From Ostreococcus lucimarinus (taxonomy: Eukaryota), in NCBI GenBank assembly GCA_000092065.1, contig CP000589.1: a stretch of 64,000 nucleotides of DNA. The stretch is one strand, 5' to 3'. This document shows, piece after piece, positions 10,878 through 59,761 of the stretch. The position numbers and the translations under genes are program-made. Position 1 is the first letter of the stretch, and the number at the start of each line of letters is the position of its first letter. Under the pieces are notes generated by a model that was not told the origin of the DNA, searched no databases, and was given only the letters and a program-made list of their open reading frames with translations.

Positions 10878-11156
10878 GCGCCCGAGGACGACGACGGGGC
10901 GGTGTCCCCATCGGCGCCCCATCGGCGCCATCGGCGCGCCATCGAACGCGACGGATCGGGATGCGCGCGACGATGGGGACCGCGAGGCGTCGATGGCGAC
11001 GATGGCGTCGACACCGACGGTCGCGAGGGATCACGCGCGCGCCGACGAGGGGAGACGTCGCGTCGACCTCGACGGCGCGCGACGGCGCGATCGGGGCGTG
11101 TTATCCAAAGCGACGCGCGAGACTGACGACGCGGTTTTCTGGAATTCTTCGCGCAG

Positions 11157-44760: not shown

Positions 44761-47418
44761 TTGCGAGCGATGGCGCGCGAAGACGGCGCGCGACGCAAGG
44801 AACGCAAGGACGAGCGCACGGTGGCGATGGAGAAGATGGTGATGGAACTCGCGGCGGCGGCGGCGGTGGTGGATGGGAATAAAACGTCGGTGAGCGAACG
44901 GGCGAGCGGGGCAAGCGGCGGGAGCAGCCTGACGAGGGCGCCGGACGCGGAGCGAGAGCGCGAGGAGGGACAAGCGTTGACGTTGGACGCGTTGGTGATG
45001 GCGAGCGCTGGATCGAATAAAAGAGCGAAGAGCGCGGGCGTTAAAGTGGCGAAACGGAAGAAGATGGAAGATAAGGGGGAGCGAAGGTGGTATTGTTGCT
45101 CGTGCAAGCAGACGCTGACGCCGGAACACTTCGATCCGAATTTGGAGACGTGTCGGTTGTGCTTGGCGAAACGTCGAGCGAAAGATCGGGCGAAGAAACG
45201 ACTTCGAGGGCTTCAGCTCAAGCATCACTTGTTGAGTGCGGATGAGAAAGATGTGGCGGCGTTTTTGTTGGGAGTGTATCATCCGGCGCTCACGCAGCAA
45301 GGGCCGCGATCTTCATCTTTTAACTCCATACAGATGAACGTGCAACGAGCGTCGATGGAAGTGAGCGCATTCGTAGAGGACTTCCGCAGCTTCCTCGAGG
45401 ACAAGCCCAAGGAACAAGCGGACAGATTGGTCCGCACGTTTTTGGGTTTGGACGATGCTGGAGAAAGGCTCACACCTCATCAAGTGATCAACGAGAAGGG
45501 TTCCGCGAAGAGGAATACGATGTCATCCAAAGCGAATAGCGCAAAGGCGACGCACAACTATCGCGCCCCAGCTTCATCGATGGGTGGCCGGCAAGAGTTG
45601 ACGAAGAGCCTGGACACCGTATACGATAAGTACGACGCGCTATTGAAAAACACCAGCGATGATCAAACGTGGGTTCGTTTCGCGGCGGAGAACGAGCAGG
45701 ACACTGATCTGGATGCTGAGAAGGTCAACTATTCCGCACCGATACATGAATCAGCTGCCGAAACCGGCACAAACGAGAAGGATGACGTGTACAGCGCCAT
45801 CATGCACGGCGCGGATCCCACCGTCAGTCATTACCTGTATCAATTCTTGTTCATGAATCAGCCGACAATCGGAGGCGAACACAGCACGATGGTCGTGGAG
45901 AGTGATCTCCCACAGCTTACGGGCCAGCTTCCATTGCGCGCAGTCGATAGCCTTTCGGAAGGGTCCAGCTTAAATGGTGCGACTAATGTGAGCTCGGAAT
46001 CGGACAACGTGTACAACACCTTGGATGAAGAGGAGCTGAACGGCAACGCATACGCGTTCAAGGGCTCGCTCGTGATGGGTTGGATTGGAGGCGCTCGTGA
46101 TGGAAAGAGAGAACTGCTAGCGAAAGAGAACGGTATCCTTCCGGACGATATGCACCCGCAAGCTGTGTTTAGCCATGGAAGACTGTTCGACGCGCGCACG
46201 CCTGGGAAGTTGGTTCCTCTCACCGAGACGGAGAACTTACACGGGTTTTCAGAAGATCTTGCGATTTTCCCCGTCAAGGATTCTTCGTCTGACATCGTTC
46301 GCATTCATATTCCGCCGGGATCTTTCAGCGAGGAGCTCGGTGTGAGAGCGTTGCACGATGGTCACTACATCGATTCTGAACTTCGCCACAGGCGCAACGG
46401 CGGAGCCGAGGTGATCCTATACCCGAACGGTAGAGACGATCGAGAGCGCAACGCAATCGTTATCCTCGGTGCTGTTCATTTACAATGTTTCGTTCGTAGC
46501 GGTACGGCGAAACAGATGCCTATCGGTTGCAACATCCCAGCGCTCTTCATACCGAGCCAAGCGCACGCGAAAGAGATTAGCGATGGCGTAGAGCACATTG
46601 CGCAAGTCAAGGGTACGAAAGCGGCCCGGCAGTTTTTGTCTTCGCTCGCGTACGTACTTGTGCACGGCGAACCAAAGAGCGCTAAGTTTGAGTTTGTCGT
46701 CGAAATGGCGCACATCCTCGCGCTCACGAGAACTTTGGATCTGCTCGAGCGATTGGCGATGTTGGCAAAGTCGTCGCTATCGAGCGATGATTCAGACACT
46801 TCTATCTCCGAAGTAGCGAGATTAGAAGTCTATAAGCCCTCGGATAATTTCTGGCAACACGCCGGTCATACCGACTCTTTTCTTGGAATCCTCCTTTGTC
46901 TTGTTGCGGGATTTATCCGTCTTATCGCTTCGGCTGTGAGCGGAGCGCGACTGAATTATGGATTCTATGCCACGCTCTTGGCCGCGGCCGCGCTTTCGGC
47001 AACGAACCCGAAGACCCGTGTAGACATCAAAAGCATTGCCTTCAACATGCTTTTTATCTGGGCACACGCAGCATCCATGCACTCAGATGATCTGACCAAT
47101 CAAATGACGTCTTACGGCAAGGCGCTGGTCATCACGCTTGCGCTCTCGGCACTGAACGCCTCGCATTCGCGCATGAGCAGCTCGTCAAGCTTTGTGTTAC
47201 CACAGCTCGCCTTTGCCGGAAGTGGCTATAACCCACACACCATTTTCCGCTTTATGAAGCAAGCGTTGCCTCAGGACGGAAGTATACCACAAAACGCGCT
47301 GCGAGCGCACGCCTGGACCGTTCACATCAGTTGCGCACTGCTGGCACCCGCGATCCTCATCTCTTGTATTTCGCAACTTCCAGGTGCACGAGTTCGCTCA
47401 AAATCTAAGCTTGCGTGA
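44761..47418 (+). CDS. Hypothetical protein (885 aa) with N-terminal Cys-rich motif (WYCCSCKQ..CRLC) and C-terminal hydrophobic helices; lower GC than flanks
   Basis: Long clean ORF; no family recognised. Confidence 0.45.
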   Translation: MRAMAREDGARRKERKDERTVAMEKMVMELAAAAAVVDGNKTSVSERASGASGGSSLTRAPDAEREREEGQALTLDALVMASAGSNKRAKSAGVKVAKRKKMEDKGERRWYCCSCKQTLTPEHFDPNLETCRLCLAKRRAKDRAKKRLRGLQLKHHLLSADEKDVAAFLLGVYHPALTQQGPRSSSFNSIQMNVQRASMEVSAFVEDFRSFLEDKPKEQADRLVRTFLGLDDAGERLTPHQVINEKGSAKRNTMSSKANSAKATHNYRAPASSMGGRQELTKSLDTVYDKYDALLKNTSDDQTWVRFAAENEQDTDLDAEKVNYSAPIHESAAETGTNEKDDVYSAIMHGADPTVSHYLYQFLFMNQPTIGGEHSTMVVESDLPQLTGQLPLRAVDSLSEGSSLNGATNVSSESDNVYNTLDEEELNGNAYAFKGSLVMGWIGGARDGKRELLAKENGILPDDMHPQAVFSHGRLFDARTPGKLVPLTETENLHGFSEDLAIFPVKDSSSDIVRIHIPPGSFSEELGVRALHDGHYIDSELRHRRNGGAEVILYPNGRDDRERNAIVILGAVHLQCFVRSGTAKQMPIGCNIPALFIPSQAHAKEISDGVEHIAQVKGTKAARQFLSSLAYVLVHGEPKSAKFEFVVEMAHILALTRTLDLLERLAMLAKSSLSSDDSDTSISEVARLEVYKPSDNFWQHAGHTDSFLGILLCLVAGFIRLIASAVSGARLNYGFYATLLAAAALSATNPKTRVDIKSIAFNMLFIWAHAASMHSDDLTNQMTSYGKALVITLALSALNASHSRMSSSSSFVLPQLAFAGSGYNPHTIFRFMKQALPQDGSIPQNALRAHAWTVHISCALLAPAILISCISQLPGARVRSKSKLA

Positions 47419-47509
47419 GCAAGCGTTGTATGAGATAAGTTTTGGTACCATTACACTCTTTTAACGCTATCATCTACTAAACTGATATTCCGCAAGCTCT
47501 CCAATTGCT

Positions 47510-48553
47510 TCACGTTGCCGCGCCCGTTGTGTACAATTCCATCGCCAAACTCACTAGTGCGATGCTAATGATTATTCGCAGCGGCATCGTCTCGTGTTCG
47601 ATACATACGTGAATGATGGCGACCACGAGCATCGACAGCGCGGACACAAAACATTTGTAAATGTTGTCCAGGTACTTCAGAATGAAAGACACTGCCAACC
47701 CGCCGAACGACAGGACGACCAAACTTACCCAAGCATAAAAGTTGAATCCGGTAAAAAGTCCATTCTTTAACGCTTCTCCTTTCCAAACTATTGGAATCGC
47801 ACCACAAATCACGCCCCAAAAGTACAGTTGCATATTCTGCCAATGAATGCTATCCGTCGCCCCGTCTTGGTTGCTGCCCTTGAGCAGCTTCTCCGACAAC
47901 ACACTCCCGGACGCAGCGATGAACGTGTTTATCACCACAAGCACGTACCCATACACACTCCCGCGTAACTGATTAGAATCTGTGATCTCCGCCGTGACAG
48001 ATCCCAATAATAACAAGAACAGCGCTCTCCACTGCAACGAAGTTAACCGCCGCCCGAGCAGCGTCCACATCAGCACCCCGGTACTTAAAATTTTCAAGTT
48101 ATTCATGATCTGATACGTCGACGGCCCCAGTTCTTGTATGATGAGGAGCATACAGTTATTCGCGACGAAATAGCACAGCGCGGGAAGCGCAAACGAGGTG
48201 AAGCGTTTCGCGCTCCACGTCACTTCTTCGACTCCTCCGCACGCCCGCGACGTCGTCAAAAAGATGAACGACAACACCAGCTTCACCGACTCCATCGTGA
48301 ACGCCAGCACCACGGTATCGTACGGATAATCATCATCACTGTTCCGGCTCAGACTCGCGAATATCGTTCCCGCCACTTGCAGGAACAAGTACGACACCAT
48401 GCTCAACACCTTGATCGACAGCGGCGTTTCCGTCCTTCCGTCGCTCTTCTTCTCGGTCGGCGTCGCATCTCGCGCGAGTTCGCCGTCCGCATCCTTCCCA
48501 TCTCGCGCGAGCAGCGATTCGCGCTCATTCGCGCTCGCGCTCGCGCTCGCCAT
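47510..48553 (-). CDS. Nucleotide-sugar transporter (SLC35A UDP-Gal/CMP-Sia transporter family)
   Basis: 10-TM layout. YFVANNCMLLIIQELGPSTYQIMNNLKILSTGVLMWTLLGRRLTSLQWRALFLLLLG aligns to the conserved SLC35A2 core. Confidence 0.8.
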   Translation of the reverse strand: MASASASANERESLLARDGKDADGELARDATPTEKKSDGRTETPLSIKVLSMVSYLFLQVAGTIFASLSRNSDDDYPYDTVVLAFTMESVKLVLSFIFLTTSRACGGVEEVTWSAKRFTSFALPALCYFVANNCMLLIIQELGPSTYQIMNNLKILSTGVLMWTLLGRRLTSLQWRALFLLLLGSVTAEITDSNQLRGSVYGYVLVVINTFIAASGSVLSEKLLKGSNQDGATDSIHWQNMQLYFWGVICGAIPIVWKGEALKNGLFTGFNFYAWVSLVVLSFGGLAVSFILKYLDNIYKCFVSALSMLVVAIIHVCIEHETMPLRIIISIALVSLAMELYTTGAAT

Positions 48554-48663
48554 CGCGTCGGTGTCTGCCGCAACGAACGATGGGTGTTACGTCGCGCGAG
48601 CCATCGCGGCAGACGCCGACGCGATTCGCGTCGTTCGCGGACGAAGCGACCGCGCGCGAACCA

Positions 48664-49955
48664 TGGAATGCGTCGATTCTCTCGACGACACCGCGCACGC
48701 GGAGGACGGGCACGAGGAGTACTGCGCGGACACGGCGGTGTCGACGGCGCGCGTCCGGACGCTGCCGAAGACGCGCATCGTCGCGCGAAACGCGTGCGCG
48801 ATCACGGGCGCGAGCGACTTCGAGCCGCTGCTCACGCTGCGAGATTTTCCGGTGGGGATGTACTGCGTCCCGGAGGAGTGGGACGGCGTGGAGTACGTCG
48901 CGGACATGCGATGGTGCGTGAGCAAGAGCTCGGGGGTGATCCAGCTCGCGGAACTCATCGAGGCGGAGACGCTGTATGATTGTCAACACGAGAGCGGCGC
49001 GATCGGAGGACTGTGGAAGCGACATCACGAAGAATTTTGTGAGTTTATCGATGCGTACGGATGTGAGAGCGTGTTGGAGATCGGCAGTGGACACGGACAT
49101 CTGGCGAAGGAGTTTGTCGCGCGAAGACGCGGGAAATGCCGATGGACAATGGTGGAACCGAACTTGCCGAGTTGGTTGCTCACGGGTGATCATCCGAGCG
49201 AAATTCACCCGATCTCGGCGTGGTTTTGTGATTCGTTCGAATTACCGAAAGACGTACCGAAAATCGACGCTGTGGTACATTCGCACACGTTTGAGCACAT
49301 CTACGATTACGACGAGTTTCTTCGCAACGTGGCAAGAATGGAACCCAAGTTTCAAATATTTTCGGTGCCACACCAGCGGGAATGGCTGGCGCGTGGTTGG
49401 CAAAATAGCATCATGTTCGAACACCCGCAACTGTTGACGCCGAAAGCGATCGAGTACATTATGTCACGTCACGGTTTCGAGTTGCAAGGAAAGAAAGTTT
49501 TCGCCGACGGGCACTCAATGTTTTACGCGTTTTCATACGCGGGAAACGCGAGCAAAAGCGAGACATCGCAGCAATCTCTCGATGAGTACGCAGAGAACAA
49601 GCGTCTTTTTCGTAACTGGCTCAAATCCAACGTTGATTTCGTCCAGAATGTGAACGATCGCATCGATGAAGCGACTATGAATGGAGAAAAGCCAACAGTT
49701 TACATGTTTGGGGCGCACATCTTCACGCAGTACCTCGTCAGCTTTGGATTGCGTATATCCGCAGTTGAGGCGATTTTGGATAACGCCGAAGGAAAGCAAG
49801 GAAAGAGACTGTACGGCCTTCCTCTCTTGGTGCACTCTCCGAAAATTCTCTCTAATGTAGAACGACCAATCGTCATCTTACGAGTCGGCGCGTACGCCGA
49901 AGAAATAAAACGCGGCATTCTCGAAGTGAACGCTCGCACGGTCTTTTGGGAGTAA
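48664..49955 (+). CDS. SAM-dependent methyltransferase with TylCIII-type architecture (NDP-hexose C-methyltransferase-like; bacterial sugar-modification type)
   Basis: VLEIGSGHGHL glycine-rich SAM motif. HSHTFEHIYD..FEHPQLLTPKAIEYIMSRHGFEL middle domain. C-terminal domain VYMFGAHIFTQYLV..ILDNAEGKQGKRLYGLPLL as in C-methyltransferase C-terminal domains. The ORF track begins at 48399, but that extension overlaps the transporter gene, so the start was set at the Met at 48664. Confidence 0.65.
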
Positions 49956-50025
49956 GGCGGGTACAGACGTTGAACGATTGTGTGTTAGCATAGCTTAGAA
50001 GCTGTAGTACTTACATATTTCAATT

Positions 50026-52347
50026 TCACGCCATGACACTTGTCACACCCCGCGCGGCCCACTCGGCGTCGTACAAATGCGTAAACGCATTGGCCAGCCT
50101 TAAAATGTACATGAAGGGAAAGTTGGGTTCGCTGAGCTTGCTCGCATCGATGCACCCGAACCACACAGCCACAAACAAAGGAAATCCAGCCAAAGCGCTG
50201 CTTACTTGTGCGATGCGCTCATCTTTCGGTACGACGACGTTGTCCAACTTTTGCCTAGAATCATAATACGTGTTGACGAGCACTTCGGCCAATTGTTCAA
50301 AGTCCTCTATGTCACAGCTCTCGACGAGAAGGAACACGATGTCTTCGATACCTTGACCTGGGCGCGCGTACTGCCAATCAATAAAGATTGGTTCGCCGCC
50401 GTTCACTTGATAATCCCAGAATAAATTTGGAAATTTGAGGTCACCGTGAAGAAGCGTTTGCGGAGCTCTTCGAAGTCGCAGCTCGGCGTCCGCAAAGTTT
50501 GCCGCCGCGTGGTCAAACAGCACGAAAACTTGTTCACCGAGCGTATTGAACCATCGATTTCGAAACGTTGCGTAGTGTTCTTGCACGTGCTGTCGCATAT
50601 ACGTGTCATAAACCGATAGCCTTCCCAACGGCGCGCCTCGGAAGTGTGAATGCAACCTCGCCATCGTGTTCACCACCTTGAGGCCGCTTTCAAGACAAAA
50701 GTCTGGCGCTCGATCATACTTTCGTAAATCCTCCATGACGATAGCGCGTGACGTCGGAAGGACGCCGTAGCAGATCGGTACACGTACCGGCATGATACTC
50801 GCAAAATCTTCATAGAACTTACACTCGGTGTCGTGAAGGTTCAAGTGTTCGCTCACCTCCATCAAGACTCCGTGATCAGAGTTTTCTTGCTTCACCACAA
50901 GATGTCTTGAACCGGAGGTCGCCGAAAGAATTTCAGAAATGTAGCCACCGCTTGCTCGAATCGGATACACAACGGATCGTTGACCCAATACTTCGGACAG
51001 TTCGTTAGAAAGGTGCGCCACAGAATTCATCGTCTCCAATAACTCCTCTGGGTCTTCAGCGACATAATTCGCGATAAACGAATCGCTGCCTGACACGTTT
51101 GTATTAACAGAGACGACGTATTGGCATCCCGCTGCGCGTCCGGAAATCAAACCGCATCGAGAGTCCTCGAAGACAATGGAGTTTCCGATCGAGACTCCAA
51201 GTCTTCTCGCCGCTTTCAAGTACGGCTCCGCGTTTGGTTTACCAAATCTCACGTCACTCGCGGAAATAAGCGGTAAATCATCCAATGCAAGATGTTTCAA
51301 CAAAGCTTTGGCGGCGGTTCTGTTGGAATTAGTCACTACGGACACTGGTCCGAGCGCACGACACTTTTGCACAAATTCCACCGCGCCTGGAATTTCTTTG
51401 GTCTTTTCGATGTATCGCAAGAACGCTTCGTCTTTCTGCTCTGACGAAATCTGCAGCTTGAAACGCTGCGCGACTTGGGCGTCAGATTGTCCGCTGATGT
51501 GTTTGAGGAAGAATTCTTCGTCGACAAACGCGCCCATCGGAGCGAGGATCTCGCGCCAAGCCGCGACGTAGGCATCCGTGGTGTCCACAAGAGTACCGTC
51601 CAAATCAAACAAAAATGCATATCCCTGTTTGGACAAGTACTGCTCTAAACACTCAGGCGTACCGATGTTCGAGTATTGGTCCTCAGCGATGACGACGGAG
51701 CTGACGTGCTTGTCTCGCGCGACGTACTCTTTCAAAACGCATGAAACGTACGCCTCGCCGCGCTCAAACTTTCCTTCTTGAGTCAAAATATCCTTCGTCA
51801 ATTCAAGAAATTCTTTTTCACTCGCGAACCAGTACGCTCCAGTGTTCGCGTAAGGACCCACGCGCGACTTCTCCGCGATTTTGGTCACGCGTCCGCCGTC
51901 CCCGCTCGTCTCAACGTATGAATATTTTGCCGCCGTCTCACGCTCACGCGCGGATTCCTCAAAGCACAGGACCGCCGCGCGCACCTCCGGTTGTTTTTCC
52001 AGCGCCCGAAACCGTTCGATGACGTCGCAATGATACACCGCATCGCAGTCCACCAACAGGAGCGACGCGTCGTTTGTCGCCGACACCGTCCCCAGCGCGA
52101 GCGCCGCCGTCTCCGCCGCCCCGACCGTCGCACGCGCCAAGCGCACCGTGGTGAACCCTCGTTCGGGGACGGAATCATCGAAATTCGTCACCACGACGCA
52201 CGTGTCGCGGTTGTCATCGACGCACAGCGCTTCCGTGACGACGTGTATCATCGCCTTGCCGATCACTGGGATGAGCGGCTTGATGTCTTCGTAGCCTTGC
52301 GCTCGGAAGCGCTCGCCGCGTCCACACGCTGGAATGAGGACGCGCAT
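50026..52347 (-). CDS. Tri-domain fusion enzyme: sugar-phosphate nucleotidyltransferase (LicC/MurU-like) + HAD-IA hydrolase (beta-PGM/phosphatase-like) + APH/choline-kinase-fold kinase
   Basis: N-terminal VLIPACGRGERF..KPL (G-x-G-x-R NTP-transferase motif). Middle FLFDLDGTLVDT (HAD motif I) with further HAD motifs. C-terminal LLHGDLKFPNLFW and IFIDWQYA (Brenner catalytic-loop and DFG-equivalent motifs of APH/ChoK kinases). Confidence 0.75.
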   Translation of the reverse strand: MRVLIPACGRGERFRAQGYEDIKPLIPVIGKAMIHVVTEALCVDDNRDTCVVVTNFDDSVPERGFTTVRLARATVGAAETAALALGTVSATNDASLLLVDCDAVYHCDVIERFRALEKQPEVRAAVLCFEESARERETAAKYSYVETSGDGGRVTKIAEKSRVGPYANTGAYWFASEKEFLELTKDILTQEGKFERGEAYVSCVLKEYVARDKHVSSVVIAEDQYSNIGTPECLEQYLSKQGYAFLFDLDGTLVDTTDAYVAAWREILAPMGAFVDEEFFLKHISGQSDAQVAQRFKLQISSEQKDEAFLRYIEKTKEIPGAVEFVQKCRALGPVSVVTNSNRTAAKALLKHLALDDLPLISASDVRFGKPNAEPYLKAARRLGVSIGNSIVFEDSRCGLISGRAAGCQYVVSVNTNVSGSDSFIANYVAEDPEELLETMNSVAHLSNELSEVLGQRSVVYPIRASGGYISEILSATSGSRHLVVKQENSDHGVLMEVSEHLNLHDTECKFYEDFASIMPVRVPICYGVLPTSRAIVMEDLRKYDRAPDFCLESGLKVVNTMARLHSHFRGAPLGRLSVYDTYMRQHVQEHYATFRNRWFNTLGEQVFVLFDHAAANFADAELRLRRAPQTLLHGDLKFPNLFWDYQVNGGEPIFIDWQYARPGQGIEDIVFLLVESCDIEDFEQLAEVLVNTYYDSRQKLDNVVVPKDERIAQVSSALAGFPLFVAVWFGCIDASKLSEPNFPFMYILRLANAFTHLYDAEWAARGVTSVMA

Positions 52348-52572: not shown

Positions 52573-53208
52573 CTAGCACGTGGGTCCACGCGCCGCGGGC
52601 CGCTCGGGAGGCGCCGGCTTGGCCGCCGCCGAGCCCGCGGCCTCAGCCTCAGCCGCGGCCGCGGCCGCGCGCTTCTCGAGCCAGTCTTTGGCTCGCTCGC
52701 GGTATTTAGCGTTCGCCTCTGTACTAATCTTGTTTGCCGCGTTACAGGCATTGATCATCGTCGTGTTGCCCTCAGAGATTCCGTGACACCAATGCACACC
52801 CATCCCGTCGCGATCCGGCCACGCCGAGTGCCCTAACGATATGCCGCGACGGACGTTGCAGTGGGCGTAGTCCGCCACGTGAAAAATAGATGCCTCAGGA
52901 CTCATTTGTGAACGGGGACTTACGCACGCGACGCTTTTCAATACATCCGTTCCTTGACCCCAAAAAGCATTGGCGCGCGAACTGTGCACGACGTAAAAGG
53001 CGTCGTTGTACTTCCAATACCAGTCCTCGTCAAAGATAAGCGTAGGTTGGACAGCGTCCGTGTCGTGGTTCGTGTCCCGACCGTCCCACAACGTCCTGGC
53101 AAAGTCCACGGGCGGTGGCGCGTACCAAAAGTACTCGGGTCGACCGTGCATGTACCACGAAAAGTGTATGTTTTTCTCCTTCTCCACTTTACGCGCCATG
53201 CAAAGCAA
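52573..53208 (-). pseudogene. Truncated tandem paralogue of the C-terminal half of the 53237-54394 gene
   Basis: LCMARKVEKEKNIHFSWY..PPPVDFARTLWDGR..FDEDWYWKYNDAFYVVHSS is colinear with LCMARKVEQEKNIHFSWF..PPPVDFATTLWDGR..FDEDWRHKYNDALYAVHSS. No N-terminal half present. Confidence 0.5.
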
Positions 53209-53236: not shown

Positions 53237-54394
53237 CTAGCACGTCGGTCCCATCGATTGCATCGGCGGGTCGTCGGCGTACGCGTTCAAAGAGCGCCAG
53301 TGGCTTACTTGCGCTCGGTAAACTTTAGTCTCTGACACACTAATTGCCTGGGCACGCTCGCACGGATGTATGTGCCTCTGAAGTGTGTAATCTACGCAAC
53401 TCAGCGTACCTTGTCCTGGCTTTGCGGTTGGCCGAGCCGATCGCTCGAACCCGATTCCCACGGCCCTCGACGCCGCCCCGACGAGGTCTACCACTTTGTG
53501 AAGGGCTGTCTCCGGAGTCATACGTTCAAGGAAGACGTGACCGGTCGCGGGGATCTCAGCTCGGCATGGTAATTTCGACAAAATCGATGACCCTGGGCCC
53601 AGTATACCATCGGCGTGCGAACTGTGCACGGCGTATAAGGCGTCGTTGTACTTGTGACGCCAATCCTCGTCAAAGATGAACGCGTGCGCGCTGTCTGTAC
53701 CCCTACCGTCCCACAACGTCGTGGCAAAGTCCACGGGCGGCGGCCCGTACCAAAAGTAATCGGGTCGACTCCGAACGAACCACGAAAAGTGTATGTTTTT
53801 CTCCTGCTCCACTTTGCGCGCCATGCAAAGCAGCCTTTTGCTCAAATCGAACTGCGCGTACGTCGTCGCCGGCGAAAAGTAGTCGTCTTTTTTCACCTTG
53901 AATCCACGCGCAGCGCAATGCTGTCCCCAAGGATCCTTCGTGTCTAAGTCATAAGCCGAGGCCGTGTAAAACGAAACCGCCACGGGTCGAATGACGTCCA
54001 GCGCGCGTTGCAGCACGTGCGGATACACCTTTGGAAACATCGCCGATCGGTCTCGCCACCCGCTCACGTCTGCGATACTCAGGAGCATGATCGGGTGCAC
54101 GTTCACGCAGCGCTCCGCCATCCAATCCAGCACATTCGTCTTCAAACCCTTGGAGACGTGATCCAACACCATCCCGCGCACCGATCCTCCGATGAGGAAC
54201 GCGACGTCCGCGCGTCCCTCCGCGCACGACTGCGCGCCGAGCGCGTCGCGCCGCGCCGTCGCCGACGCGACGACGATCGCCACCGCCGCGATCAGCGACA
54301 ATAACGACCCAACGCGCGTCCGTCGCGCGCTCCTAGAGCCATCATCGCCGATGAGCGGCGTCGCCTCGTCCGTCATCGCGCCGCGAACACCCAT
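53237..54394 (-). CDS. Type-II membrane (Golgi-type) protein of unknown function, possibly a glycosyltransferase-like enzyme
   Basis: Short cytosolic tail, TM anchor (VGSLLSLIAAVAIVVASA), large luminal domain. Paralogue fragment immediately downstream. Confidence 0.45.
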   Translation of the reverse strand: MGVRGAMTDEATPLIGDDGSRSARRTRVGSLLSLIAAVAIVVASATARRDALGAQSCAEGRADVAFLIGGSVRGMVLDHVSKGLKTNVLDWMAERCVNVHPIMLLSIADVSGWRDRSAMFPKVYPHVLQRALDVIRPVAVSFYTASAYDLDTKDPWGQHCAARGFKVKKDDYFSPATTYAQFDLSKRLLCMARKVEQEKNIHFSWFVRSRPDYFWYGPPPVDFATTLWDGRGTDSAHAFIFDEDWRHKYNDALYAVHSSHADGILGPGSSILSKLPCRAEIPATGHVFLERMTPETALHKVVDLVGAASRAVGIGFERSARPTAKPGQGTLSCVDYTLQRHIHPCERAQAISVSETKVYRAQVSHWRSLNAYADDPPMQSMGPTC

Positions 54395-54421: not shown

Positions 54422-54612
54422 CGACGCGCGTCGGTTTTCGCGTCGCCGCGCGCGCGACGCGCGTCGGTTTTCGCGTCGCCGCACCGCGCGCGCGATGGTG
54501 CGTCGCACAGTGCGACGCCGATGCATCGCATCGCGCGCGTCGCCATGTCCTCGGCGCCCCTGCACGACGCGCGCGCGCGCGGAAGGATGTCCGACGCGAA
54601 GGATGTCCGACG
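54422..54612. repeat. Near-identical segmental duplicate of 56904-57048 (5' end and start codon region of the S9 peptidase gene), with internal 32-bp and 12-bp tandem duplications
   Basis: Direct by-eye alignment; 2 mismatches. Confidence 0.85.
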
Positions 54613-54617
54613 TATCA

Positions 54618-55015
54618 ATACGTCGACGGCCCCAGTTCTTGTATGATGAGGAGCATACAGTTATTCGCGACGAAATAGCACAGCGCGGGAAGCGCAAACG
54701 AGGTGAAGCGTTTCGCGCTCCACGTCACTTCTTCGACTCCTCCGCACGCCCGCGACGTCGTCAAAAAGATGAACGACAACACCAGCTTCACCGACTCCAT
54801 CGTGAACGCCAGCACCACGGTATCGTACGGATAATCATCATCACTGTTCCGGCTCAGACTCGCGAATATCGTTCCCGCCACTTGCAGGAACAAGTACGAC
54901 ACCATGCTCAACACCTTGATCGACAGCGGCGTTTCCGTCCTTCCGTCGCTCTTCTTCTCGGTCGGCGTCGCATCTCGCGCGAGTTCGCCGTCCGCATCCT
55001 TCCCATCTCGCGCGA
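54618..55015. repeat. Segmental duplicate of 48113-48510 (N-terminal ~134 codons of the nucleotide-sugar transporter gene, minus strand), 398 bp, essentially identical
   Basis: The antisense ORF 54615-55565 reproduces ARDGKDADGELARDATPTEKK...QELGPSTY of the transporter. Confidence 0.9.
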
Positions 55016-55188
55016 ACAGCGGTTCGCGAGTCTGGAAAGCGCTTCCGTGCGGTACAAGCGAGTCGCCCCAATAGGAGTAGGTGTAGCCTAGCTGTAGCTG
55101 TAGCTCCGTCGCCGACAAATGTCCGACCGATCGACAGAGACCGACGCGCGTCCGCAGCCGACACTGCGCGCGCCCACGCGACGCGAGA

Positions 55189-56742
55189 ATGAGTGACAAA
55201 GACGCGCAAAGCATCTCTCGCGGCGAGCGCTCGAATTTGCTCGCGCGCAACGCCGCGAACGGCGTCGTTGAGGGTGTTGCGAGCATCCTGGACGAAGAGC
55301 GCGGTGAGACCGACGTGAGCGAGCGATCCCGAGCGAGAACGTCGACGTCGCGAGGATGTCTCGCGAGTGTTGCGCTGATGGCGTGTGCGGTCGGCGCGGG
55401 GATGGCGGTCGCGTCGCGCGGGGGGGTCGACGACGCGAGGACGAGCGCACGAGCTCGCGGCGGTGGGAAATCGACGCTCGGGATCAGTGGAGCGACACGA
55501 GCTCGCGGCGGTGGGAAATCGACGCTCGGGATCAGTGGAGCGACGGGAGTGCGGACGTATATCATAGCAGATACGTCGCCCGGAGACGAGATGGAGAGAT
55601 CTAGGAAAGGACGCGATTACGTGTTCAACCTGTTCAAAACGCACGGTGGTTTGAGCGACGCCGAAGCGCGCAATACTGTGGAAATCTCGAGTGCGACGTT
55701 TCCTTCGCTTTGGCCGGATACCTTCGAGACAGCGCGAAGCGCGACGCACGATGTACTAGCGGGAGCCCTTGCTGCTTCAGAAGCGAACGTTCCAACCAGT
55801 GAGTTGCCGTATCCCATCAGACAGGTTCACGAATCGCAGCTCAATCCACAGCACCGTTGCGTCGGCGAAAAATGCGTATTCCCGTATAACCACCACCTTG
55901 GATGTCTTCTATCTCACATGTCTGTGTGGAAGAAAGCTATTTCGCGAGGTGAGGATCGGTTTGCCGTGTGGGAGCAAGATGGTATGGGGATCGCTTCCGT
56001 GAGCCCGCTTGACTACACAGAGCTCGGACGCCAGCTTCCTCGCGACGCAGATATGGTCTGGCTCCTCCCCATTGGAAGAAGCACCGGTCAATTCGTGAAA
56101 AAGTTCCGCTCAAGGGCGTTTGGCACGTGGGGGAAAGGTACCTGGGGTCTCGTAAAGACAGACTGGTCGCCCGAATCGATGCACACGGCGATGAATTCAA
56201 CGCACGTTTATTTGTACAAGTGGAACAAAATGTGCTCGTGGGCAGGAACGGCAGCTCTCATGTTCACCAAGCAAGGCGTCGAGAAAATTCTTCGGTACAG
56301 TACCGAACACAGTCTCGACATGATCGATGCTTTCCTCATTGGCGGATGCATCCATAAATCGGGAAAGACGAGTCGTCTTTCCTTGAACTGTTATCACGCG
56401 TCGAGCGTGCCAACCAAGAAAGAGCTCCTGGGTGGAATCGTGCCCGATTGGTACACTGACGAAACCGTGGGCGATCGAGCACTTCCTCAAGAGCAGGTTG
56501 ACGCCATGGATCGGGATGACGCCAAGTTCAACTCGCTTGGTTGTCAGCGCGGCGGCGACGAGTTCAAGTCAAAATCTGCCTGGATTCCCACGTCCTGGGC
56601 TGGAGACGACTCCGCGGATTCGTGCGTTCCCTCCTGGAACGCCCCGGTGGACGTGTGCGATGCATCCGTGAAGTATCCACTCGATGGACACAAGTACTCA
56701 TACCTCGGCAGCGCGATGTTGCGTACAAAGCCCGAGCGTTAG
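55189..56742 (+). CDS. Type-II membrane glycosyltransferase family 25-like protein
   Basis: N-terminal TM anchor. GCLLSHMSVWKKAISRGEDRFAVWEQDG resembles the GT25 motif (GC.LSH...W..I......IFEDD). Contains an in-frame 48-bp duplication. Confidence 0.55.
   Translation: MSDKDAQSISRGERSNLLARNAANGVVEGVASILDEERGETDVSERSRARTSTSRGCLASVALMACAVGAGMAVASRGGVDDARTSARARGGGKSTLGISGATRARGGGKSTLGISGATGVRTYIIADTSPGDEMERSRKGRDYVFNLFKTHGGLSDAEARNTVEISSATFPSLWPDTFETARSATHDVLAGALAASEANVPTSELPYPIRQVHESQLNPQHRCVGEKCVFPYNHHLGCLLSHMSVWKKAISRGEDRFAVWEQDGMGIASVSPLDYTELGRQLPRDADMVWLLPIGRSTGQFVKKFRSRAFGTWGKGTWGLVKTDWSPESMHTAMNSTHVYLYKWNKMCSWAGTAALMFTKQGVEKILRYSTEHSLDMIDAFLIGGCIHKSGKTSRLSLNCYHASSVPTKKELLGGIVPDWYTDETVGDRALPQEQVDAMDRDDAKFNSLGCQRGGDEFKSKSAWIPTSWAGDDSADSCVPSWNAPVDVCDASVKYPLDGHKYSYLGSAMLRTKPER
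55451..55546. repeat. 48-bp tandem duplication x2 inside the GT25-like coding region (encodes ARARGGGKSTLGISGAT twice)
   Basis: Seen directly. Confidence 0.85.
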
Positions 56743-56968
56743 CGACGCTTGTAAAGAAACAGCCTAGGGGTGCTTGAATCCGGTATTGGGAATTTCCCGA
56801 TACGTATCAAAAACGACTGTTTTCATACTGTTTGCCCATACGAAAAGCCTAATACGTTGATACGCCAATACGGTATCAGCTCGTATCAAGTGCAGCAGGC
56901 CTAGACGCGCGTCGGTTTTCGCGTCGCCGCACCGCGCGCGCGATGGTGCGCGGCACAGTGCGACGCCG

Positions 56969-59761
56969 ATGCATCGCATCGCGCGCGTCGCCATGTCCTC
57001 GGCGCCCCTGCACGACGCGCGCGCGCGCGGAAGGATGTCCGACGCGAAACGCGCGCTCGTCGCGCGCGCGAGAGGCGCGTTCGACGCCGTCGCGGGACGG
57101 CGTCGACGCGTGAACGTCGCGAGCGGTGGTGACGAACGCGGGACGACGACGCGGGAGGACGCGCGCGCGAGCGATGGGGACGACGCGAACGGGTACCGAC
57201 GCCCGCCGGACGCGCTGACGCAGTTCACGGAGCGACCGCAGAGCCCGAACGTGACGGTGTCGCCCGATCGAAGGCGCTTGCTGTATTTGCACAAACCGCC
57301 GCCGCTGCCGGACGTGGCGACGCTCGCGCGAGAGGAGGTGAAACTGGCGGGCGTGCGGATCGATGCGGCGCAAAATTCGACGTCGAGGATGGGACATCAA
57401 ACGAAATTGGCGATCGGAGCGATGCCTGCGAGAGAGGAGGAGATCGGAGCGGCGGAAGATTTCGTCGGGACTCCGGAGAACGCGCTGATTAACTACGTGA
57501 GTTGGTCGCCGGATGGGACAAAGATAGCGTTTACGACGCGCTCGAGCGGAGAACCGGGTGAGCCAGAGCGAGGACCGTTGACACTTTGGATCGCCGACGC
57601 GCACACGCGACAGTGCCGAGTGCTGCTTCCCGATCGTGGGTTGAATACTATTTTTGAGTCGTACAGTTGGTTGAACGACGACGTCATCGTCGCGTGTTGC
57701 ATTCCAGAAAATCGACCCAAGGAAGCGCCGAAGCGACCGCAGACGCCGTTCGGGCCGAGAATTCAAACAAACCGAGGTGGTAACGTGGCACAGGCGCGAA
57801 CGTACGCCGATTTATTGAAAGACTCGCACGATGCGGATTTATTCGATTACTATTGTTCGTCGGAACTCGTGGCGGTGGACGTCTCCACCGGGGCGACGAA
57901 GACTTGGGGTGATGGAAAGGCGAGAATCTACACGCGCTGCGATCCGTCGCCCGACGGAAAATATGCTATCGTCGAAGCCATTCATCGGCCCTACTCGTAC
58001 TCGGTGCCGTGTGGTAGGTTTCCAAAGAAGGTTTGGGTGGCGGACAGCGACGGCAAAGTCGTGCGCGAGGTCGCGGACTTACCTTTGGCCGAGAATGTGC
58101 CCATCGTGCACAACGCCACGCGTAAAGGACCTCGTGCGGTGAACTGGCGTTCGGATAAGAGTGCGTCGTTGTACTGGACCGAGGCGCAAGATGAGGGTGA
58201 TCCGAGAGTCGAAGTCTCCCCTCGAGACGTCACGTACACGGTCGACGTCGGCAAAGATCCTGCGGCGACGCCCAAGACGCTGTTTCAAACTGATTATCGC
58301 TACGGTGGCGTCGCATGGGGCGGCGATGATATGTCGATTTTATATGAGAGTTGGTACAAGACACGCACGTCGCGAGTGTGGGTGACTTCGCCGGGCGACG
58401 CCGATCCGAATGCGACAAAGCGCATGCTTTGGGAGCGCGACTACGAAGACAGTTACAACGCTCCCGGTTCATTTGCTACACGCCGGACGGAAGATGGATC
58501 GTACATTCTGGCGCGTGTCGTCGGACCGACGCCGTTGGGAGAAGGTAAACCCACGGGTCCGGGAGTGAAGCTGTTGTTGCAGGGAGACGGCGCGAATCCA
58601 GAAGGCGATAGACCCTTCATCGACTTGTTCGACGTCGACACCGGCGCCAAGCATCGAATGTGGGAAAGCAAACCGCCGTATTTGGAGCATCCGGGGAGTT
58701 TGATCAGCGATTACGGCGGCCCCGAGGCGGCGCCTGTCACGCTCGAAACTATGCGCATATTGTTCTCTCGAGAGAGCCCGTCGGAGAATTCGCAATTCTT
58801 TTCGCTTCAAATGACCGCCGACGGCTCGCCCGGAAAAGAGGTGAAAATTTCAAATTTCCCTCATCCACATCCCGACTTAAAGGAGCTGCCGAAGGAAATA
58901 ATCAAGTACAAGCGCGACGACGGCGTTGAGCTCAACGGCACGCTGTACACGCCGCCCGGGTACGACGCCGCGCACGATGGTCCGCTACCACTCCTGATGT
59001 GGGCTTATCCACGAGAGTTCAAAACAAAAGAAGCTGCATCGCAGCTACGCGATTCACCGTATCGCTTCACCGGTATCGGCCCATCGAGCGCGTTGGTGTG
59101 GCTTGCGCGTGGATACGCAGTGCTCGACGGGCCGGCGTTGCCCATCATCGGCGAAGGCGAGGGTGTGGAACCGAACGATACGTACGTCGAACAACTCGTC
59201 GCTGGCGCGCGTGCGGCGGTGAACGAAGTCGTTGCGCGCGGTGTCGCGGATCCGGAGCGCATCGCTGTCGGCGGTCACTCGTATGGCGCGTTCATGGCGG
59301 CGAATTTGCTCGCGCACGCACCGGATTTGTTCGCGTGCGCCATCGCGCGAAGCGGGGCATACAATCGAACGCTAACGCCTTTCGGGTTTCAAGCCGAAGA
59401 ACGCACGCTGTGGGAAGCGCCGGAAACGTACAACGCGATGTCACCGTTCATGAACGCGCACAAGATTAAAAAGCCGATTTTATTGATCCACGGCGAGGAG
59501 GATCAAAACAGCGGTACCCATCTCATGCAATCCGAACGCTTCTTCTCCGCTCTCAAGGGTAACGGTGCCGAGGTCAAGCTTGTCATTTTACCGCACGAGT
59601 CTCACGGCTATCGCGCCAAAGAAAGCATCAACCACATGCTCGCCGAGACGTCTGATTGGCTGGACGCGCACTGCGCGCCAGGGGCGAAGAAAGCCGCCGA
59701 GGCGCGCGCGGAGGAAGCCGCCAAGGCGAAGCGCGACGCCGAGGAGATGGTTTCGAAGTAA
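56969..59761 (+). CDS. S9 family serine peptidase (prolyl oligopeptidase / glutamyl endopeptidase CGEP-like), organelle-targeted
   Basis: N-terminal beta-propeller region and a C-terminal alpha/beta hydrolase with GGHSYGA (GxSxG), plus downstream Asp and His (HESHGY). Confidence 0.8.
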   Translation: MHRIARVAMSSAPLHDARARGRMSDAKRALVARARGAFDAVAGRRRRVNVASGGDERGTTTREDARASDGDDANGYRRPPDALTQFTERPQSPNVTVSPDRRRLLYLHKPPPLPDVATLAREEVKLAGVRIDAAQNSTSRMGHQTKLAIGAMPAREEEIGAAEDFVGTPENALINYVSWSPDGTKIAFTTRSSGEPGEPERGPLTLWIADAHTRQCRVLLPDRGLNTIFESYSWLNDDVIVACCIPENRPKEAPKRPQTPFGPRIQTNRGGNVAQARTYADLLKDSHDADLFDYYCSSELVAVDVSTGATKTWGDGKARIYTRCDPSPDGKYAIVEAIHRPYSYSVPCGRFPKKVWVADSDGKVVREVADLPLAENVPIVHNATRKGPRAVNWRSDKSASLYWTEAQDEGDPRVEVSPRDVTYTVDVGKDPAATPKTLFQTDYRYGGVAWGGDDMSILYESWYKTRTSRVWVTSPGDADPNATKRMLWERDYEDSYNAPGSFATRRTEDGSYILARVVGPTPLGEGKPTGPGVKLLLQGDGANPEGDRPFIDLFDVDTGAKHRMWESKPPYLEHPGSLISDYGGPEAAPVTLETMRILFSRESPSENSQFFSLQMTADGSPGKEVKISNFPHPHPDLKELPKEIIKYKRDDGVELNGTLYTPPGYDAAHDGPLPLLMWAYPREFKTKEAASQLRDSPYRFTGIGPSSALVWLARGYAVLDGPALPIIGEGEGVEPNDTYVEQLVAGARAAVNEVVARGVADPERIAVGGHSYGAFMAANLLAHAPDLFACAIARSGAYNRTLTPFGFQAEERTLWEAPETYNAMSPFMNAHKIKKPILLIHGEEDQNSGTHLMQSERFFSALKGNGAEVKLVILPHESHGYRAKESINHMLAETSDWLDAHCAPGAKKAAEARAEEAAKAKRDAEEMVSK

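What the first reader, a model, noticed from the sequence alone, without database searches (positions are those of the whole stretch)
48664..49955. TylCIII-type NDP-sugar C-methyltransferase-like gene in a eukaryotic nuclear genome, next to a nucleotide-sugar transporter
The protein has the three-part layout of bacterial NDP-hexose C-methyltransferases: a glycine-rich SAM motif LEIGSGHG, a middle domain with HSHTFEHIYD, and the characteristic C-terminal domain VYMFGAHIFTQYLV...ILDNAEGKQGKRLYGLPLL. These enzymes build branched or methylated deoxysugars for antibiotics and O-antigens. They are uncommon in eukaryotes apart from giant-virus-associated and HGT contexts. The gene is convergent with the tri-domain activation enzyme and divergent from the nucleotide-sugar transporter, whose 5' end it overlaps in the ORF track.
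Basis: partly seen in the sequence, partly recalled or inferred. Interest (0 to 1): 0.6.

Follow-up and report, generated by a model that had tools for sequence, protein, structure and literature searches.

The report
Algal nucleotide-sugar methyltransferase gene cluster
A tiny marine alga carries an intact bacterial-type sugar methyltransferase next to a sugar-activating enzyme and a sugar transporter; the same enzyme set occurs in marine bacteria, phages and giant viruses and probably makes an unidentified methylated sugar for cell-surface glycans.

Summary
The gene is real. Its predicted structure (pLDDT 89) matches full-length only the three solved NDP-sugar 3-C-methyltransferases MtmC, TcaB9 and KijD1 (TM 0.73-0.79). 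A family profile hits them at E 2e-16 to 8e-9. The TcaB9 catalytic H181/E224/H225 equivalents (H212/E253/H254) are invariant in 180 relatives.

It is not a canonical TylCIII-family member. PF08421 is absent, three of the four zinc cysteines are lost, PF08484 is below threshold, and no NCBIfam model matches. It belongs to a large, unnamed family of about 380 aa found in marine and other bacteria, phages, giant viruses and a few algae. The algal copies form a 100%-bootstrap group with a giant-virus copy.

In 129 of 152 loci the methyltransferase lies within five genes of a nucleotidyltransferase. Fusions of the methyltransferase to nucleotidyltransferase or HAD domains exist, and giant viruses carry the same methyltransferase + tri-domain gene pair.

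Best reading: it methylates the NDP-sugar made by the neighbouring kinase/HAD/nucleotidyltransferase enzyme, and the neighbouring transporter imports the product. Whether methylation is on carbon or oxygen, and which sugar is involved, remain unknown.

The parts
48663..49955 (+). Methyltransferase gene, 430 aa, no intron. It is a zinc-less member of the TcaB9-fold three-domain methyltransferases.
   Evidence: Clean translation. It aligns end to end with about 380-aa homologues. AF2 pLDDT 89. Foldseek top 18 hits are MtmC/TcaB9/KijD1.
48780..48974 (+). N-terminal beta-ribbon domain (residues ~40-104). It corresponds to the zinc-ribbon domain of TcaB9/MtmC, but three of the four Cys ligands are replaced (CxxC becomes C-A-I-T, and CxxC becomes S-K-S-S).
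   Evidence: Residue-level alignment to MtmC. Beta strands E53-63, E77-87 and E93-99 in the model. PF08421 is not detected. Column 85 is S/W/G/Y across the family.
49008..49538 (+). Class I SAM-binding Rossmann domain (residues ~116-292). It carries motif I LEIGSGHG, the His-rich HSHTFEH motif (H206, H208, E211, H212) and NSIMFEH (F252, E253, H254).
   Evidence: PF13489 at 3.3e-13. E211, H212, E253 and H254 are invariant in 180/180 family members. H212, E253 and H254 align with TcaB9 H181, E224 and H225.
49587..49952 (+). Long linker helix plus the C-terminal Rossmann-like domain (residues ~309-430). It carries FGAHIFTQ and the D373-N374-x3-K378-Q-G-K-R-L-Y-G motif and is the presumed NDP-binding domain.
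   Evidence: Sub-threshold PF08484 hit at residues 314-416. It aligns to the C-terminal domains of MtmC and TcaB9, including their D-x4-K-Q motif. Q356 and D373 are invariant, and N374 and K378 are conserved in 179/180.
48554..48662 (.). 109-bp divergent intergenic region shared by the transporter and methyltransferase genes (a putative bidirectional promoter).
   Evidence: Coordinates. The same divergent pair occurs in L001 and L162 and in distant eukaryote-like contigs L164-L166.
47510..48553 (-). Nucleotide-sugar transporter gene (347 aa).
   Evidence: PF04142 at 9.3e-41.
50026..52347 (-). Tri-domain sugar-activation enzyme (773 aa). Residues 1-235 are a sugar-1-P nucleotidyltransferase, 244-440 a HAD-IA sugar phosphatase / beta-phosphoglucomutase-like domain, and ~450-773 an APH/EcKL-type kinase.
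   Evidence: Pfam and NCBIfam. PDB hits for the HAD and nucleotidyltransferase parts. Full-length homologues of about 790 aa lie beside the methyltransferase gene in giant-virus MAGs.
53237..54394 (-). DUF7796-like protein of 385 aa with a predicted N-terminal transmembrane helix. It is tentatively the transferase of the cluster.
   Evidence: Evidence is weak. Pfam DUF7796 gives E 0.01. The profile of the ~250-aa protein found beside the methyltransferase in 40 viral loci hits only this ORF in the window (E 8.6e-5). However, hhalign gives probability 3.4% and the AF2 model failed (pLDDT 36).
52573..53208 (-). Shorter tandem paralogue of the DUF7796-like gene (43% aa identity). It lacks the N-terminal part.
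44770..47418 (+). 882-aa ORF with no recognisable domain. It is conserved upstream of the transporter gene in related strains and shares the lower GC of the cluster. Whether it belongs to the cluster is uncertain.
   Evidence: No Pfam hit. Present in L001 and L162. GC 0.55.

Best explanation
The gene encodes an active, cytosolic, SAM-dependent methyltransferase with the three-domain TcaB9/MtmC fold. It belongs to a distinct, zinc-less, His-rich and so far uncharacterised subfamily.

Proposed pathway:
1. The neighbouring tri-domain enzyme converts a sugar phosphate into an NDP-sugar without a mutase, using its phosphatase, anomeric-kinase and nucleotidyltransferase activities (order of the first two unknown). 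This resembles MupP-AmgK-MurU or HddA-GmhB-HddC.
2. The methyltransferase binds that NDP-sugar through its C-terminal domain. It transfers one methyl group from SAM to the sugar, using the invariant Glu253-His254 pair (with H212 and H109 nearby) as general base.
3. The divergently transcribed nucleotide-sugar transporter carries the methylated donor into the ER/Golgi, where it is added to surface glycans. The adjacent DUF7796-like membrane proteins may be the transferases.

What is shown: the fold, the homology, the conserved catalytic positions, and the gene linkage and fusions. What is inferred: the substrate class, the order of steps and the cellular destination. What is unresolved: the identity of the sugar, and whether the methyl goes to oxygen or to carbon. 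I favour oxygen at about 55% because no enzyme that generates a keto sugar is linked; I put carbon at about 25%.
For: Fold and homology:
- AF2 pLDDT 89.1.
- Foldseek PDB hits 1-18 are only MtmC, TcaB9 and KijD1, at TM 0.70-0.79.
- Family profile against the PDB gives E 2e-16, 2.6e-9 and 7.8e-9, all full length.

Active site:
- TcaB9 H181, E224 and H225 align with H212, E253 and H254. These, together with E211, Y105, W118, Q356 and D373, are invariant in 180/180 relatives.
- The D-x4-K-Q motif of the nucleotide-binding C-terminal domain is kept.

Functional linkage:
- A nucleotidyltransferase lies within +-5 genes in 129/152 loci, a HAD phosphatase in 100/152, and both in 93.
- A fixed bacterial operon occurs in Campylobacter concisus, a Pseudothioglobus genome and a Prochlorococcus MAG, Chlorobium and others: KdsC-like HAD, GatZ-like, 274-aa unknown, PMI-type cupin, nucleotidyltransferase + kinase, methyltransferase.
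- A full-length tri-domain homologue (28-29% identity, E about 1e-100) lies directly beside the methyltransferase in giant-virus loci L151, L152, L156 and L161.
- Fusions exist of nucleotidyltransferase + methyltransferase (P0151, Herbaspirillum L081, GVMAG L155) and of HAD + methyltransferase (P0160).

Transporter link:
- The divergent transporter-methyltransferase pair recurs in contigs whose methyltransferase is only 41-44% identical (L164-L166).

Selection and expression:
- Orthologues exist at 79, 71, 69, 63 and 55% identity, including MMETSP/EukProt transcripts.
Against: - No biochemical data exist for any family member. No NCBIfam model matches, and no paper was found.
- All solved relatives are C-methyltransferases acting on 4-keto sugars, so O-methylation would be unprecedented for this fold.
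- GT2 + methyltransferase fusions (P0202, P0221) could mean that methylation happens on the glycan and not on the donor.
- The bacterial nucleotidyltransferase + kinase protein (k0) is only marginally similar to the algal tri-domain enzyme (E 0.0014). The bacterial and algal pathways may therefore use different sugars.
- The upstream enzymes seen in bacteria (GatZ-like, cupin) are absent from the window.
Confidence: 0.6

Rival explanations
1. It is a genuine C-methyltransferase. It would methylate a carbon next to a keto group of an NDP-keto-sugar and produce a branched-chain sugar in a eukaryote.
For: Every solved structure with this fold is a 3-C-methyltransferase. The catalytic base pair E224/H225 and H181 of TcaB9 are conserved. 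Some members lie near RmlC/RmlD-type genes (P0100 context).
Against: No 4,6-dehydratase or other keto-generating oxidoreductase is part of the conserved core or of the algal cluster. The only SDR-family gene in the window is 30 kb away. TcaB9 Y222 is an invariant Phe and Y76 an invariant His in this family. The zinc domain is lost. Identity to the C-methyltransferases is only 15-19%.
Confidence: 0.25
2. It methylates the sugar after transfer, acting on a growing glycan or polymer and not on the nucleotide-sugar donor.
For: GT2 + methyltransferase fusion proteins exist in the family (P0202, P0221). The loci are rich in glycosyltransferases.
Against: The protein has no signal peptide or transmembrane segment, whereas eukaryotic glycan assembly is lumenal. 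The nucleotide-binding C-terminal domain motif is conserved. Nucleotidyltransferase + methyltransferase and HAD + methyltransferase fusions, and the 85% linkage to nucleotidyltransferases, point to the donor-synthesis stage.
Confidence: 0.08
3. The pathway makes a CDP-linked non-sugar head group such as an amino alcohol or polyol, in the manner of LicC-LicA. The enzyme would then be an N- or O-methyltransferase for that head group.
For: Nucleotidyltransferase + choline-kinase-like kinase architecture resembles LicCA (from my own knowledge, not tested). The kinase domain matches APH/EcKL. Shikimate-dehydrogenase-like and DHBP-synthase partners occur in some loci.
Against: The best NCBIfam hits of the nucleotidyltransferase are sugar-1-P nucleotidyltransferases, and those of the HAD are sugar phosphatases. 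Bacterial partners are sugar-phosphate enzymes (GatZ-like, PMI-type cupin, KdsC-like). The eukaryotic partner is a nucleotide-sugar transporter.
Confidence: 0.05
4. It is a decaying relic of horizontal transfer, or a contaminant, with no current function.
For: GC and GC3 are slightly lower than in flanking genes (0.53-0.56 vs about 0.60). Duplication scars lie nearby.
Against: The ORF is intact and all family-invariant residues are present. Orthologues run from 98% down to 55% identity with the same neighbours. Transcripts exist in related species. The gene is embedded among housekeeping eukaryotic genes on a 663-kb contig.
Confidence: 0.02

Closest known systems
TcaB9 (Micromonospora chalcea), KijD1 and MtmC: the TylCIII/EryBIII-type dTDP-sugar 3-C-methyltransferases (PDB 3ndi, 5t64, 4rv9)
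   Same: They share the three-domain architecture (N-terminal ribbon, class I SAM domain, C-terminal Rossmann-like nucleotide-binding domain) and superpose over the full length at TM 0.73-0.79. The catalytic His/Glu-His positions and the D-x4-K-Q motif are conserved.
   Different: Identity is only 15-19%. The zinc-binding cysteines and the PF08421 signal are lost, and PF08484 is below threshold. Y222 is replaced by Phe and Y76 by His. An extra invariant His cluster (HSHxxEH) is present. There is no linked 4,6-dehydratase or 2,3-dehydratase. The partners are a kinase/HAD/nucleotidyltransferase and not an RmlA/RmlB-type route. The gene is found in algae, giant viruses, phages and marine bacteria, not in antibiotic gene clusters.
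MupP-AmgK-MurU peptidoglycan-recycling route, and the HddA-GmhB-HddC GDP-heptose route (comparison for the neighbouring tri-domain enzyme; recalled from knowledge)
   Same: The same three activities (HAD phosphatase, anomeric sugar kinase, sugar-1-P nucleotidyltransferase) convert a sugar phosphorylated at a non-anomeric position into an NDP-sugar without a mutase. NCBIfam lists weak MupP and MurU-type hits.
   Different: Here the three activities are fused into one 773-aa polypeptide in the order nucleotidyltransferase-HAD-kinase. All scores lie far below the equivalog cut-offs. The sugar is unknown. The analogy was not tested.
Unnamed family of ~380-aa methyltransferases, e.g. Synechococcus phage S-SKS1 SWZG_00045 ('hypothetical protein') and the Campylobacter concisus, Prochlorococcus and Chlorobium operon members
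   Same: This is direct family membership: 35-44% identity over more than 87% of the length, with the same invariant residues and the same linkage to nucleotidyltransferase and HAD genes.
   Different: The algal copy has a ~40-residue unconserved N-terminal extension. It is paired with a eukaryotic nucleotide-sugar transporter and a tri-domain fusion. It lacks the GatZ-like and cupin partners of the bacterial operon.

Membership tests
TylCIII/TcaB9-type NDP-hexose C-methyltransferases (Pfam architecture PF08421-PF13489-PF08484) | N-terminal putative zinc-binding domain (PF08421) with four Cys ligands | tested here: not met
   No PF08421 hit even at E<=10. In the alignment to MtmC, CxxC...CxxC becomes C-A-I-T ... 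S-K-S-S. The beta-ribbon fold itself is retained in the model.
TylCIII/TcaB9-type NDP-hexose C-methyltransferases | Class I SAM-dependent methyltransferase core with a glycine-rich motif I | tested here: met
   PF13489 at 50.1 bits against a gathering score of 27. LEIGSGHG is present, and E139 and G141 are conserved in the family (179 and 175 of 180).
TylCIII/TcaB9-type NDP-hexose C-methyltransferases | C-terminal C-methyltransferase domain (PF08484) detected by HMM | tested here: inconclusive
   This protein scores 16.0 bits (E 0.01), below the gathering score of 23.5. Other members of the same family pass at 27.7-37 bits. The domain superposes on the solved enzymes.
TylCIII/TcaB9-type NDP-hexose C-methyltransferases | Full-length three-domain fold shared with solved members | tested here: met
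   The Foldseek top 18 PDB hits are all MtmC, TcaB9 or KijD1, at E 5.5e-22 to 1.3e-18 and TM 0.70-0.79 over about 410 columns. The next hit has TM 0.34.
TylCIII/TcaB9-type NDP-hexose C-methyltransferases | Catalytic residues of TcaB9 (Y76, H181, Y222, E224, H225) | tested here: inconclusive
   H181, E224 and H225 correspond to H212, E253 and H254, which are invariant. Y222 corresponds to F252 (179 of 180). Y76 corresponds to H109 (177/180), although the alignment there is less certain.
TylCIII/TcaB9-type NDP-hexose C-methyltransferases | Works on an NDP-4-keto-6-deoxy sugar, with a linked 4,6-dehydratase or other keto-sugar genes | tested here: not met
   No dehydratase occurs in the algal cluster or in the conserved core of 152 related loci. 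The linked SDR cluster k4 (37 loci) resembles nucleotide-sugar epimerases by sequence; the epimerase assignment is my own reading.
TylCIII/TcaB9-type NDP-hexose C-methyltransferases | Forms a C-C bond (C-methylation) | not testable with these tools
   This needs an enzyme assay with product NMR or MS.
Unnamed ~380-aa zinc-less 'HSHxxEH / NFEH' methyltransferase family (bacteria, phages, giant viruses, algae) | End-to-end homology plus the family-invariant residues Y105, W118, E211, H212, P236, E253, H254, Q356 and D373 | tested here: met
   323 cluster representatives at E<=1e-30. Identity is 37-45% over about 91% of the length. All invariant residues are present.
Unnamed ~380-aa zinc-less methyltransferase family | Genomic linkage to a sugar-1-P nucleotidyltransferase and a HAD phosphatase | tested here: met
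   In the window, the tri-domain gene lies 70 bp downstream in convergent orientation. Family-wide, 129/152 loci have a nucleotidyltransferase and 100/152 a HAD. Fusions exist.

The most novel reading that the evidence does not exclude
The 44.8-54.4 kb island is a eukaryotic glycan gene cluster encoding a complete, undescribed nucleotide-sugar pathway. It would comprise mutase-independent activation by a kinase/HAD/nucleotidyltransferase fusion, methylation by a zinc-less TcaB9-fold enzyme with new chemistry (an O-methyltransferase in a fold known only for C-methylation, or a C-methyltransferase making the first branched-chain sugar donor in an alga), Golgi import, and transfer. The cassette would have moved among bacteria, phages, giant viruses and picoalgae, and it would decorate the cell surface that prasinoviruses recognise.
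Probability: 0.3. Interest if true: 0.8.

Novelty: new variant of a known kind. Interest (0 to 1): 0.55.

Why it matters
- **Enzymology.** The TcaB9 fold is known only from antibiotic deoxysugar C-methylation. This finding shows a large, unannotated sister family (323 clusters at 50% identity with E<=1e-30) that is abundant in Prochlorococcus, cyanophage, giant viruses and picoalgae. It has lost the zinc site, has gained a His-rich pocket, and is wired to a different sugar-activation route.
- **Algal biology.** Physical clustering of activation, tailoring and transport genes is unusual in a eukaryote. It gives a directly testable candidate for a methylated surface sugar in Mamiellales-like picoalgae, whose surface glycans are thought to govern virus adsorption and resistance.
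- **Evolution.** The methyltransferase + tri-domain pair shared with giant viruses, and the alga + giant-virus grouping, are a clear case of cassette exchange across domains of life and viruses.

Tried and rejected
- NCBIfam gave no hit for the methyltransferase.
- A single-protein scan of IMG/VR found nothing. The alignment-based scan was needed.
- Literature searches found nothing relevant to this family. The terms were TcaB9; Ostreococcus + C-methyltransferase; giant virus + 3-C-methyltransferase; GatZ + nucleotidyltransferase + methyltransferase; S-SKS1 + heptose.
- I considered whether C. jejuni Cj1426 (heptose 6-O-methyltransferase, PMC3546167) belongs to the family. I could not obtain its sequence, so this remains an untested lead.
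- I tried to show that the DUF7796-like neighbour (53237-54394) is the transferase of the cluster. Only 18 homologues were found, the AF2 model was unusable (pLDDT 36.5), and the hhalign probability against the viral neighbour family was 3.4%. Only a weak hmmsearch hit (8.6e-5) and weak DUF7796 hits remain, so this is inconclusive.
- The AFDB fold library was unavailable.
- GatZ-like, cupin, KdsC-like and k5 partners of the bacterial operon were searched for in the window and not found.
- A recent prasinovirus origin is rejected. No viral hit exceeds 41% identity, and no prasinovirus or chlorovirus full-length structural match exists in BFVD.
- Contamination is rejected, given the housekeeping neighbours and the long contig.
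Full report
**1. The observation**

Translation from 48664 gives 8 stop codons, whereas 48663-49952 gives a clean 430-aa protein.

The longest ORF begins at 48399 and would overlap the transporter gene. However, homologues begin near Met89 of that ORF, and conservation starts about 40 residues later. The true arrangement is therefore a 109-bp divergent gap between the transporter gene (47510-48553, -) and the methyltransferase gene. The tri-domain gene (50026-52347, -) ends 70 bp beyond the methyltransferase stop codon, in convergent orientation.

The remainder of the window encodes ordinary eukaryotic genes: Rsm22, an ankyrin histone deacetylase, YchF, ALG11, PIG-L, a protein kinase and an S9 peptidase. 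The identical protein also occurs on a 662,958-bp contig. The nuclear-genome setting is therefore sound. The genes from 44.8 to 52.3 kb have slightly lower GC (0.53-0.56) and GC3 (0.61-0.69) than their neighbours, which lie mostly at about 0.60 and 0.70-0.84.

**2. What the protein is**

- Only PF13489 passes its threshold.
- PF08484 scores 16.0 bits against a gathering score of 23.5.
- PF08421 is absent.
- NCBIfam has no model for the protein.

Homology to the sugar C-methyltransferases is nevertheless firm:
- The single sequence aligns to MtmC (4rv9) over residues 43-415.
- A 22-sequence family profile hits MtmC at 2e-16, TcaB9 at 2.6e-9 and KijD1 at 7.8e-9, always over the full length.
- The AF2 model is confident (pLDDT 89.1, pTM 0.88).
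- Its 18 best Foldseek matches in the PDB are exclusively those three enzymes (TM 0.70-0.79). After them the list drops to generic methyltransferase cores at TM about 0.33.

From the HMMER alignments, allowing for the two-residue offset of the TcaB9 chain numbering, the residues correspond as follows:
- TcaB9 H181, E224 and H225 correspond to H212, E253 and H254.
- Y222 corresponds to F252.
- Y76 probably corresponds to H109.

In an alignment of 180 family members, Y105, W118, E211, H212, P236, E253, H254, Q356 and D373 are invariant. H109, F252, N374 and K378 are nearly so. The zinc-ribbon cysteines are mostly replaced, which explains the missing PF08421 signal. The family-specific HSHxxEH motif adds a cluster of histidines next to the acceptor pocket. 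That this cluster binds a metal is my inference and was not shown.

**3. The family and its distribution**

An exhaustive search found 323 cluster representatives at E<=1e-30 and 1321 at E<=1e-3.

Genomes carrying the family include Campylobacter concisus, Pelagibacteraceae, Prochlorococcus and Synechococcus MAGs, Chlorobium ferrooxidans, Legionella, Geobacter and many Patescibacteria. IMG/VR holds phage contigs and giant-virus MAGs with the gene. The cultured Synechococcus phage S-SKS1 carries it as a 'hypothetical protein', SWZG_00045.

The closest relatives of the window protein run from 98% to 50% identity. They come from marine metagenomes and from MMETSP and EukProt transcriptomes. A more distant set at 40-45% identity includes Hemiselmis rufescens.

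In a neighbour-joining tree with 100 bootstraps, the window protein, all eukaryote-like sequences and one giant-virus lineage (L082/L083/P0025; 24% GC) form a split with 100% support. The rest of the backbone is unresolved. No prasinovirus or chlorovirus relative appeared.

**4. Context as evidence of function**

I called ORFs in 152 related loci and clustered the neighbours. A nucleotidyltransferase lies within five genes of the methyltransferase in 129 loci, a HAD phosphatase in 100, and both in 93.

Many bacteria share a fixed operon. In order, it is:
1. a KdsC-like HAD phosphatase;
2. a GatZ/KbaZ-like class II aldolase-family protein;
3. a 274-aa unknown protein;
4. a PMI-type cupin;
5. 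a 524-aa nucleotidyltransferase with a kinase-like C-terminal half;
6. the methyltransferase.

The kinase assignment of that C-terminal half rests only on an HGD...N/IDW motif that I read in the sequence and on a marginal NCBIfam thiamine-kinase hit (E 0.009). Pfam found only a weak NTP_transferase match.

Giant-virus MAGs carry a full-length homologue of the algal tri-domain protein (about 790 aa, 28-29% identity, E about 1e-100). It lies directly beside the methyltransferase in L151, L152, L156 and L161. Phage loci have a HAD + nucleotidyltransferase fusion, or, in S-SKS1, a nucleotidyltransferase + DHBP-synthase fusion together with a small HAD and a TAL/FSA aldolase.

Fusion proteins join the methyltransferase to the same nucleotidyltransferase family (P0151, Herbaspirillum L081, GVMAG L155), to the same HAD family (P0160), or to a GT2 (P0202, P0221).

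Eukaryote-like contigs whose methyltransferase is only 41-44% identical again show a divergent transporter-methyltransferase pair. One of them also carries a ribulose-phosphate-3-epimerase-family gene and a 1192-aa nucleotidyltransferase + HAD protein. Another carries a GT90-like gene. Closer relatives keep the methyltransferase + tri-domain pair.

**5. Mechanism proposed**

The tri-domain enzyme combines a sugar-1-P nucleotidyltransferase, a HAD-IA sugar phosphatase/mutase-like domain and an APH/EcKL-type kinase. From established pathways (MupP-AmgK-MurU; HddA-GmhB-HddC; recalled, not tested), this set converts a sugar phosphorylated away from C1 into an NDP-sugar without a mutase.

The methyltransferase keeps the nucleotide-binding C-terminal domain motif and the Glu-His base of its solved relatives. 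It is also fused to the nucleotidyltransferase in some organisms. The NDP-sugar is therefore its most likely substrate. The transporter would then import the methylated donor.

I could not decide between O- and C-methylation. All structural precedents are C-methyltransferases. However, the enzymes that supply the required keto sugar are not part of the conserved core or of the algal cluster. That makes O-methylation somewhat more likely. The sugar is unknown. The variable upstream enzymes (GatZ-like plus cupin in bacteria, an epimerase-family gene in L164, aldolase plus DHBP-synthase-like in S-SKS1) suggest rare ketose-phosphate-derived sugars, and perhaps different ones in different lineages.

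**6. Comparison and novelty**

The protein works like, and is homologous to, TcaB9/TylCIII-type enzymes. It nevertheless fails two of the family's sequence-defined features and the dehydratase-linkage feature. I therefore file it as a member of an unnamed sister family: a new variant of a known kind. I found no publication on the family.

**7. Limits**

- The neighbour analysis uses my own simple ORF caller.
- The tree is distance-based and unrooted.
- The organism was not identified by any tool. A Mamiellales-like picoalga is my inference from composition, gene density and the transcriptome hits.
- The role of the DUF7796-like genes remains inconclusive.

Noticed in passing
window 54456-55028 (compare 48113-48523 and 56904-57048): This is a ~570-bp mosaic of two recent duplications. 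A 411-bp copy (99.5%) of the 5' coding half of the nucleotide-sugar transporter gene lies at 54618-55028. Next to it, at 54456-54600, is a 145-bp copy (98.6%) of the 5' end of the S9-peptidase gene. It looks like a rearrangement scar or pseudogene fragment just upstream of the DUF7796-like gene, and it suggests the island is structurally dynamic.
   Followed up: partly
window 52573-53208 and 53237-54394 (-): These are tandem paralogues (43% aa identity) of a lineage-restricted protein with only 18 homologues found. The longer copy has a predicted N-terminal transmembrane helix, and both lie immediately downstream of the tri-domain gene. There are weak DUF7796 hits here and in the gene next to the methyltransferase in phage S-SKS1. 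The profile of a ~250-aa protein found beside the methyltransferase in 40 viral loci hits only this ORF in the window (E 8.6e-5), but hhalign does not support the link (probability 3.4%) and the AF2 model failed.
   Followed up: partly
window 44770-47418 (+): This 882-aa ORF has no Pfam domain and a hydrophobic C-terminal third. It is conserved directly upstream of the transporter gene in related strains (L001, L162) and shares the lower GC of the island.
   Followed up: no
window 46000-52000: GC dips to 0.51-0.55 against about 0.60 elsewhere. GC3 of the four island genes is 0.61-0.69 against mostly 0.70-0.84 in neighbours. This is compatible with foreign origin but is not strong evidence.
   Followed up: partly
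L010, L011, L019, L025, L045, L075 (bacterial loci), genes upstream of the match at ~10001: A strikingly fixed and apparently uncharacterised operon occurs in Campylobacter concisus, Pseudothioglobus, Prochlorococcus, Synechococcus, Chlorobium and Aliiglaciecola. Its order is KdsC-like HAD, GatZ-like, 274-aa unknown, PMI-type cupin, 524-aa nucleotidyltransferase + kinase, methyltransferase. It probably encodes a complete pathway to an unknown methylated NDP-sugar.
   Followed up: partly
L168 (Synechococcus phage S-SKS1, NC_020851.1 31913-50965): The phage copy of the methyltransferase (SWZG_00045) sits in a glycan cluster. The cluster includes a fusion of a nucleotidyltransferase with a bona fide DHBP-synthase (RibB) domain (PF00926, 5e-65), a 118-aa HAD annotated as 'phosphoheptose isomerase', and a TAL/FSA aldolase. 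This enzyme combination is unusual for sugar-nucleotide synthesis.
   Followed up: partly
L164 (Logan SRR23967298 contig, 9352 bp): This eukaryote-like contig has a divergent transporter-methyltransferase pair, a ribulose-phosphate-3-epimerase-family gene and a 1192-aa nucleotidyltransferase + HAD protein. It appears to be a second, independently arranged version of the cluster.
   Followed up: partly
protein cluster of P0001/P0268: Many JGI/IMG copies of this methyltransferase are named 'cathepsin L'. This is an evident annotation error that is propagating through metagenome records.
   Followed up: no
window 55448-55543: A perfect 48-nt tandem duplication (16 codons) lies inside the domain-less 517-aa ORF 55189-56742.
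   Followed up: no
window 9779-9868 and 10788-10877: This is a 90-bp direct repeat at 98.9% identity. One copy lies at the 5' end of the 1323-aa minus-strand ORF, and the other inside the neighbouring plus-strand ORF 10127-11209.
   Followed up: no
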